Assembly (NCBI GenBank): GCA_964016885.1
Contig: OZ024744.1
Span: 112,406,001 to 112,470,000 of the forward strand
DNA from: Eledone cirrhosa
Taxonomy: Eukaryota
Direction of reading: 5' to 3'
Length of the DNA: 64,000 nt
Under the pieces are notes generated by a model that made no database searches, had not been told where the DNA came from, and was given only the letters and a program-made list of their open reading frames with translations. Position 1 is the first letter of the stretch, and the number at the start of each line of letters is the position of its first letter. Below, one piece after another: positions 14,536 through 14,757 of this stretch. Made by a program: the position numbers and the translations under genes.

Positions 14536-14606
14536 GATTTTTTCATTCTGATGATTGAAAGCAAACTTTTTTTGCTTTTAAGAAACCACTGGTAAATGAA
14601 ATAATC
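14536..14606 (+). ncRNA. Type-I hammerhead ribozyme, complete core
   Basis: Stem I GATTTTTTCATT/AATGAAATAATC, CTGATGA, 11-bp stem II, GAAA, CCA-C-TGG stem III, GUA cleavage triplet. Confidence 0.85.
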
Positions 14607-14686
14607 GCCTTATGTTGTTTATTACATAACTATATATATATATATATATATATATAAGATCAAAAGATGGTTAAAAGAGTTCCAAG

Positions 14687-14757
14687 TATTTTATTATGCG
14701 CATTTCAAAAACAAATATCATCATGAGATGACATCTGCGTTTTCATCAGATAAAATA
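14687..14757 (-). ncRNA. Type-I hammerhead ribozyme, complete core
   Basis: Minus strand: TATTTTAT-CTGATGA-16-bp stem II-GAAA-TGCGCA-TA-ATAAAATA. Perfect 8-bp stem I, palindromic stem III, AUA triplet. Confidence 0.87.

What the first reader, a model, noticed from the sequence alone, without database searches (positions are those of the whole stretch)
14536..14757. Two convergent hammerheads with complete catalytic cores, about 80 bp apart
The plus-strand motif (12-bp stem I with 1 mismatch, 11-bp stem II, CCA/TGG stem III, GUA site) faces an unrelated minus-strand motif (perfect 8-bp stem I, 16-bp stem II, TGCGCA palindrome, AUA site) across a (TA)n tract. A transcript crossing the locus in either direction would meet one potentially active ribozyme. 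The pairs at the base of stem II are U-A and A-U instead of the usual G-C, which may reduce activity.
Basis: partly seen in the sequence, partly recalled or inferred. Interest (0 to 1): 0.72.

Follow-up and report, generated by a model that had tools for sequence, protein, structure and literature searches.

The report
Two Penelope retroelement ends sharing microsatellite
The two facing self-cutting-RNA motifs are real, but they are the broken ends of two very common jumping-gene families that likely landed separately in the same TA repeat, a pile-up seen at 28 other places in this genome, so the pairing is likely ordinary.

Summary
Both type I hammerhead motifs are present as described and exceed chance. 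Each belongs to its own high-copy repeat: family A (plus strand, 4,956 exact cores) and family B (minus strand, 19,969). Elsewhere each motif sits just 5' of a reverse-transcriptase/GIY-YIG ORF whose motifs fit the (TA)n-targeting Hydra clade of Penelope-like elements (PMC8557442). Both outer ends of such insertions are 3' ends, so neighbours in one (TA)n tract meet tail to tail. The same A/B junction occurs 29 times genome-wide, 11 with both cores complete; B's other end abuts A about equally often. B's palindromic stem III is predicted to need a same-family partner, A and B cannot partner each other, and the window's B copy is predicted to misfold. Cleavage and transcription are untested. 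This scan has already reported similar Hydra stacks on other DNA of this genome and of other genomes. Verdict: real motifs, known kind, convergence a by-product.

The parts
14011..14046 (.). (TA)18 tract, left boundary of the stack
14047..14210 (-). Family X: inverted long 3' tail
   Evidence: 97% to the tail of the X arm in L182; tail read
14210..14403 (+). Family X pseudo-LTR piece with a damaged third hammerhead (core 14214, H17 14337; 105-nt stem II; stem I cut to 4 pairs; palindrome CGATCA where intact copies have CGATCG)
   Evidence: (3,447 exact cores)
14404..14434 (.). (TA)n/(TG)n tract between X and A
14435..14444 (-). Last 10 nt of the family A long tail, inverted (remnant of the second arm)
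   Evidence: reverse complement of the long end seen in A copies; read from sequence
14443..14501 (+). 59-nt piece of an unrelated repeat (D) caught inside the A insertion
   Evidence: 39 of the 40 best places other than the window match only this piece, 38 at 100%; flanks differ
14503..14633 (+). Family A pseudo-LTR piece ending at the short 3' end
   Evidence: 93% to L075, where it runs on into tail and ORF
14536..14606 (+). Hammerhead A (type I; predicted cleavage after 14594)
14631..14656 (.). (TA)13 tract shared by the short ends of A and B
14657..14818 (-). Family B pseudo-LTR piece ending at the short 3' end
   Evidence: 91% to the 5' pseudo-LTR of the intact element in L126
14687..14757 (-). 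Hammerhead B (type I; predicted cleavage after 14695 on the minus strand)
14817..14856 (+). Last 40 nt of the family B long tail, inverted (remnant of the second arm)
   Evidence: 97.5% to the tail end in L125 and L126
14857..14927 (.). (TA)35 tract, right boundary of the stack

Best explanation
The two hammerhead motifs are the terminal repeats (pseudo-LTRs) of two different high-copy Penelope-like retrotransposon families, likely of the Hydra clade, that likely inserted independently into one (TA)n microsatellite. Shown: family membership, copy numbers, the link of each motif to an RT/GIY-YIG ORF elsewhere, and the shape of the insertions, with one arm ending at a short 3' end and an inverted arm ending at a long 3' end (67 nt further for A, about 98 nt for B). 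Inferred mechanism: the element's endonuclease nicks (TA)n; reverse transcription starts at two fixed sites downstream of the hammerhead and stops early, leaving a 5'-truncated copy joined to an inverted one. Both outer ends are therefore 3' ends, and any two insertions in one tract face each other, which makes their hammerheads convergent. In the parent's tandem transcript the ribozyme would work as a same-family dimer through its palindromic stem III, perhaps with help from the element's protein. At this locus each motif is a lone relic with no partner in cis and is likely silent or very slow.
For: Each motif recurs on its own between (TA)n tracts: none of the 28 other distinct A loci and none of the 29 other B loci fetched has the partner family adjacent as here; two A loci hold B arms about 0.9 and 1.4 kb away. 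Exact cores: A 4,956, B 19,969, reversed-pattern controls 0. All 40 best places for A plus tail plus ORF start cover nearly the whole query; 14 of 19 fetched loci show RWK and DKT in one frame; L094 is a tandem pLTR-ORF-pLTR with a broken ORF. B runs into an ORF in 4 of 30 tail loci, intact at 798 aa in L126. Hydra motifs are present. The junction A short end/(TA)n/B short end occurs 29 times on many contigs (28 short-short), with different subfamily variants and flanks; the only 2 pairs aligning 300 nt past both sides are 71-75% identical. Control: A end against B's long end, 37 matches, 28 of them A-short by my reading of the list, equal to the 28 above. A also faces other hammerhead families in L005, L021, L023, L028 and L029.
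Against: The 28 junctions exceed my rough estimate for random use of (TA)n tracts (8-17, from about 5,800 A and 11,700 B short ends and 2-4 million tracts) by about two- to three-fold, so some preference for long tracts or for existing ends is not excluded. No empty site or insertion polymorphism was seen (could not bridge the locus), so independence and order of insertion are inferred. The clade call rests on motifs and a by-eye comparison; Pfam and PDB gave no significant hit and no tree with reference elements was built. 'Likely silent' rests on folding predictions; A's short stem III has about 0.5 probability as an isolated monomer.
Confidence: 0.9

Rival explanations
1. The pair has been kept or co-opted as a two-way RNA cutter: whichever strand is transcribed is cleaved, ending read-through.
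For: Both cores are complete and face each other. A's stem I forms in short contexts of this copy (probability 0.98 with 15-nt flanks, 0.87 with 40-nt).
Against: The arrangement recurs (11 of 29 junctions have both cores complete). Neither copy is better preserved than its family. B's monomer stem III is predicted not to form. B's upstream 10-mer is private to this copy (1 of 103) and is predicted to pair with the palindrome: stem I probability 0.03 against a median of 0.97 in 25 other copies with 15-nt flanks. With 110-nt flanks both window copies score 0.0. The long ORFs listed outside the satellite look like transposon debris by eye, with no host exon recognised; a long intron is not excluded.
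Confidence: 0.04
2. A-(TA)n-B is one composite mobile element that spreads as a unit.
For: 29 junctions of the same layout, above the rough random-tract estimate.
Against: The junctions combine different A and B subfamilies, truncation points and tract lengths; none is near-identical to another across both sides; the alternative B end is as common; 28 is about 0.5% of A short ends.
Confidence: 0.03
3. The two pieces are solo units of non-LTR retrozymes (tandem non-coding hammerhead repeats copied through circular RNA).
For: Type I motif with palindromic stem III, short and non-coding at this locus; PMC4209133 notes most such motifs are single.
Against: No head-to-tail array of either unit here; both motifs are the pseudo-LTRs of ORF-bearing elements.
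Confidence: 0.03

Closest known systems
Hydra clade of C-terminal EN+ Penelope-like elements, including Hydra-1_Obim (Craig et al. 2021, PMC8557442; seen: passages, section 11, supplement part 2 of 59 and look-up passages)
   Same: (TA)n insertion; single ORF of RT then GIY-YIG; RWK-like, DKT, CxCx5C, CxxC and CxH motifs; no CCHH cysteines between GIY and YIG; canonical hammerhead in the pseudo-LTR; partial tandems with an inverted 5'-truncated copy and a one-sided tail. Several listed Hydra hammerheads have an odd palindrome with one central base like A's, and by my count only 7 of 26 Hydra rows have G-C at the base of stem II.
   Different: A, B and X hammerheads differ in sequence from the Hydra-1_Obim row, so they are other families. 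Stem II is longer (11, 16 and about 45 pairs), its base is U-A or A-U (not seen in those 26 rows), the tails are 67 and about 98 nt against the 30-40 bp described, B has RWI for RWK, and copy numbers run to thousands.
Minimal hammerheads of metazoan PLE pseudo-LTRs (Cervera and de la Pena 2014, PMC4209133; parts 1-2 of 4 read)
   Same: Type I, palindromic helix III that calls for a dimer, long helix II, mostly solo copies from truncated elements; that paper already mentions pairs about 100-700 bp apart on opposite strands. It found no monomer cleavage and low dimer cleavage for a Schistosoma motif.
   Different: It reports a highly conserved G10.1-C11.1 pair, absent from A and B. Helix I is longer here (8-12 pairs). 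The parts read do not say whether its opposite-strand pairs were of one family or two.
Poseidon element of Anolis carolinensis (Frangieh et al. 2024, PMC11167929; parts 1-2 of 4 read)
   Same: Two internal reverse-transcription start sites that define the tail; hammerhead upstream of them; AT-rich target. Its hammerhead cut only with the element's protein present and was not needed for insertion in vitro.
   Different: Penelope/Poseidon clade; its ORF begins inside the hammerhead, whereas in A and B the ORF begins beyond the long tail.
Animal non-LTR retrozymes (bioRxiv 10.64898/2026.07.22.740005, part 1 of 5 read; PMC7229834 seen in a search listing only)
   Same: Type I hammerhead, non-coding, linked to PLE pseudo-LTRs.
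   Different: Retrozymes are head-to-tail arrays; these are single ends of coding elements.

Membership tests
Type I hammerhead ribozyme | Conserved core CUGANGA, GAAA, UH | tested here: met
   Both motifs
Type I hammerhead ribozyme | Helices I and II around the core, helix I open-ended | tested here: met
   A: 8 pairs with changes on both sides, 0 of 500 shuffles as high (related rows, one poorly aligned). B: 97% of cells paired but no covariation above shuffles, 372 of 500.
Type I hammerhead ribozyme | Helix III formed in the monomer or through a dimer | tested here: inconclusive
   Prediction only: monomer pair probability A 0.52, B 0.001; homodimers favoured by 9.0 and 11.5 kcal/mol; A and B palindromes do not pair
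Type I hammerhead ribozyme | G10.1-C11.1 pair at the base of helix II (typical, not universal) | tested here: not met
   U-A in A, A-U in B; 0 of 93 and 0 of 108 copies have G-C. G-C in only 7 of 26 published Hydra rows (my count).
Type I hammerhead ribozyme | Self-cleavage at H17 | not testable with these tools
   No assay; no RNA run listed
Penelope-like elements (EN+) | Single ORF with RT and GIY-YIG endonuclease next to the repeat | tested here: met
   B: intact 798 aa in L126 with YRDD and IYECKV..YFG. A: broken ORF in L094 and L073. Atlas neighbours at 0.98 carry HTH_animal in 25-38% of members, others GIY-YIG. Pfam and PDB blank.
Penelope-like elements (EN+) | Pseudo-LTRs from partial tandems, with hammerhead | tested here: met
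   L094 (A cores at 2854 and 7486 around one ORF), L125 (B cores at 5322 and 1382)
Penelope-like elements (EN+) | Inverted 5'-truncated copy and one-sided tail | tested here: met
   inverted tail remnants on all three window elements
Hydra clade | RWK motif | tested here: met
   A parent RMRWK; B parent has the variant RLRWI
Hydra clade | DKG changed to DKT | tested here: met
   SDKT in both parents
Hydra clade | CxCx5C linker; no CCHH cysteines between GIY and YIG; CxxC and CxH at the C-terminus | tested here: met
   B: positions 657, 676-694, 757, 785; A aligned
Hydra clade | Insertion into (TA)n | tested here: met
   2,912 A and 5,859 B short ends abut (TA)4 or more on one strand alone
Hydra clade | Placement inside the clade on an RT tree | not tested
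   Reference sequences were only read in the supplement and compared by eye
Non-LTR retrozyme | Head-to-tail tandem of non-coding hammerhead units | tested here: not met
   No such array at this locus; coding parents found
Naiad clade | N-terminal endonuclease, no canonical hammerhead | tested here: not met
   Endonuclease is C-terminal and the hammerhead is canonical

The most novel reading that the evidence does not exclude
The tens of thousands of lone Hydra hammerheads are not all dead: transcripts that read through them pair in trans through family-specific palindromes (CCACUGG, UGCGCA, CGAUCG), or are switched on by the family's own protein, and so cut host RNAs genome-wide. A stack like this one would then be a cutting site on both strands, controlled by which retroelement family is active.
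Probability: 0.07. Interest if true: 0.7.

Novelty: new member of a known kind. Interest (0 to 1): 0.2.

Why it matters
As a locus it is ordinary, and that is the useful result: convergent hammerhead pairs in this genome follow from how Hydra-type elements insert, and should not be read as designed switches. Two by-products have some value. Family B has an intact 798-aa ORF and about 20,000 hammerhead cores, so it is a practical candidate for testing (TA)n targeting and protein-assisted cleavage in the Hydra clade. Families A, B and X stretch the published hammerhead range (A-U type pairs at the base of stem II; a stem II of about 100 nt in X), which Rfam missed here.

Tried and rejected
Rfam at gathering score: 0 matches in the window; by E-value only chance-level matches. 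Pfam on three L026 fragments, P0001 and one L094 fragment: nothing above cut-off. PDB sequence search: 0. I first took the ORFs for Neptune from memory and dropped that after reading the Hydra definition. RNAalifold on the A alignment gave a weak non-hammerhead consensus (-2.35 kcal/mol), so the named structure was counted instead; on B it recovered stem II only. Sequencing runs: no RNA holder listed, which says nothing about expression. Laying four runs gave family-wide pile-ups and no record spanning the stretch, so no empty-site test. An A+B heterodimer was rejected (palindrome duplex energy 0); the antisense of each element holds no core. A splice origin for the D piece was considered and dropped, since D has no GT at that junction. 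The TA-tract density used for the expectation is rough: 0.6-1.6 per kb in four samples and 0 in the 10 kb beside the window, which I left out of the range. The overlapping-match strand counts (14,770 and 25,005) were discarded as inflated. Alignments used 40 of 65 unique A and 40 of 60 unique B sequences, all chosen for an intact core, so they cannot test core conservation. Four literature searches turned up no paper devoted to convergent hammerheads of different families in cephalopods; that covers only the library searched. PMC544870 (one passage) gave no rate for a non-G-C pair. No structure or complex prediction was run.

Full report
Observation. A descriptor for type I hammerheads found exactly two hits in the 64-kb window, plus 14548-14594 and minus 14749-14695, and none in 200 dinucleotide shuffles of window 1-28490. 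Stem I has 11 of 12 pairs in the plus motif (A) and 8 of 8 in the minus motif (B); stem II has 11 pairs in A and 15 of 16 in B. The motif ends are 80 nt apart. Rfam did not detect them.

Each motif is its own repeat. The window lies in a 3.0-Gb genome, octopus-like by inference from the repeats. DNA searches gave 2,181 first-look candidates for A and 1,400 for B, with the best copies 91-98% identical. Exact patterns count 4,956 A cores and 19,969 B cores, with 0 for the reversed controls. In the loci fetched, each family sits by itself in (TA)n tracts. Many copies are head-to-head pairs in which one arm stops at a short 3' end and the other runs on through a tail to a long 3' end, 67 nt further for A and about 98 nt for B. 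The window copies are cut-down versions of this shape. A is a 131-nt piece ending at the short end, preceded by 10 nt of inverted tail and a 59-nt piece of another repeat. B is a 162-nt piece plus 40 nt of inverted tail.

Parents. A query made of A's hammerhead, tail and the following sequence matched nearly end to end at all 40 best places, and 14 of 19 fetched loci show RWK and DKT motifs in one frame. L094 holds hammerhead, broken ORF, hammerhead in tandem. For B, 4 of 30 tail loci continue past the tail into an ORF; L126 is intact at 798 aa and L125 has the ORF between two B hammerheads. Pfam and PDB gave nothing significant; the ESM Atlas returned clusters at 0.95-0.98 carrying HTH_animal, GIY-YIG or RVT_1 in part of their members. 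The motifs match the Hydra clade as defined in PMC8557442: RWK (RWI in B), DKT, a CxCx5C linker, no cysteine pair between GIY and YIG, CxxC and CxH at the end, and (TA)n insertion. By eye A's parent follows Hydra-1_Obim along its N-terminus, but the hammerheads differ, so these are other families. The two parents share 37-42% identity in local alignments; the hammerhead DNA shares nothing significant. No tree was built.

Why they converge. Both outer ends of such an insertion are 3' ends, so two insertions in one tract face each other. A direct count finds the window's junction 29 times in the genome, the window included; 28 join two short ends and 11 have both cores complete, with cleavage sites 93-136 nt apart. 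They mix different subfamilies, truncations and flanks; the two pairs that align 300 nt past both sides are only 71-75% identical. The control, A's end against B's long end, gives 37 matches, 28 of them with A's short end by my reading of the list: equal use of B's two ends, as random stacking predicts. With about 5,800 A and 11,700 B short ends (twice the non-redundant strand counts), uniform placement gives about 1 junction, and random use of 2-4 million tracts gives 8-17. The observed 28 is somewhat higher, which may reflect preference for long tracts or for existing ends; the estimate is rough. A also faces other hammerhead families in five more loci.

A third element. A relaxed scan found another core at 14214-14337. 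It belongs to family X, 3,447 exact cores, with a rod-like stem II of about 100 nt and a CGATCG palindrome; a Hydra-type ORF lies inside inverted X pairs in L182 and L183. The window copy has lost most of stem I and one palindrome base. The locus is thus a stack of three insertions, X, A and B, between (TA)n tracts.

Activity. Everything here is prediction. A's stem III has about 0.5 probability as an isolated monomer, B's 0.001; homodimers are favoured by 9.0 and 11.5 kcal/mol; the two palindromes cannot pair with each other, and the motifs lie on opposite strands. In 421-nt read-through folds stem I of both is lost. For A this is also so for family copies with long flanks (0 of 38 above 0.5 with 110 nt), so it says little about this copy. 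For B the window copy is worse than its family with 15-nt flanks (0.03 against a median of 0.97 in 25 copies), though with 40- and 60-nt flanks the family median is also low; its upstream 10-mer, unique among 103 copies, is predicted to pair with the palindrome. The base of stem II is U-A in 82 of 93 A copies and A-U in 95 of 108 B copies, never G-C; only 7 of 26 published Hydra rows have G-C (my count). Covariation supports A's stems (8 pairs with double changes, 0 of 500 shuffles) but not B's (372 of 500). Published PLE hammerheads cut poorly or only with protein: no monomer cleavage for a Schistosoma motif (PMC4209133), and protein-assisted cleavage not needed for insertion in the anole element (PMC11167929). 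No RNA data were available.

Verdict. These are new families of a known clade, and the convergence is a by-product of stacking in (TA)n. Earlier notes of this scan reached the same reading on other DNA (looked up after my assignment) and are not counted as support. Interest 0.2.

Noticed in passing
window 14047-14403; L064, L170-L183: Family X hammerhead with a rod-like stem II of about 100 nt (3,447 exact cores), tied to a Hydra-type ORF; too long for usual descriptors.
   Followed up: partly
L126:2568-4964 (-): Intact 798-aa Hydra-type ORF of family B with its 5' pseudo-LTR; a candidate active element.
   Followed up: partly
window 14443-14501: A 59-nt piece of another repeat sits inside the A insertion, likely a template switch; its CUUCAGAAUGAA stretch is predicted to pair with A's stem I and core.
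   Followed up: partly
L026 1150-1500; L007-L009, L019-L030, L094: The A parent's region upstream of the hammerhead is over 1 kb of TG/TA-rich sequence ending in a pyrimidine tract and CAG, like an intron end; much apparent microsatellite in this genome may be spread by this element.
   Followed up: no
L073:4520-4600: A related element upstream of an ORF has a hammerhead-like motif reading CCGACGA instead of CUGANGA, with palindrome CCTCTGG.
   Followed up: no
L005, L009, L010, L013, L016, L019, L021, L023, L028-L030, L037, L039, L041, L042: Further hammerhead families with other palindromes (TATATA, TATGTA, CTAG, CGCG, CATATG, CCTTTGG, CCTCTGG) in the flanks; L037 holds a 310-bp tandem of one.
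   Followed up: no
window 28491-58886: 30-kb array of a 13-nt CA-rich unit with extreme strand skew, interrupted at about 44180-45450 by a LINE fragment (RTE-like, label recalled).
   Followed up: no
window 62274-63317: Another Hydra-type RT fragment, in two orientations.
   Followed up: no
window 9044-9832: Broken transposase ORF (mariner/Tc1-like, label recalled).
   Followed up: no
window 13800-14010 and 14928-15073: High-copy short repeats flank the stack; the right one is a patchwork of at least two families and ends in a hairpin plus CTAGT (Helitron-like, label recalled).
   Followed up: no
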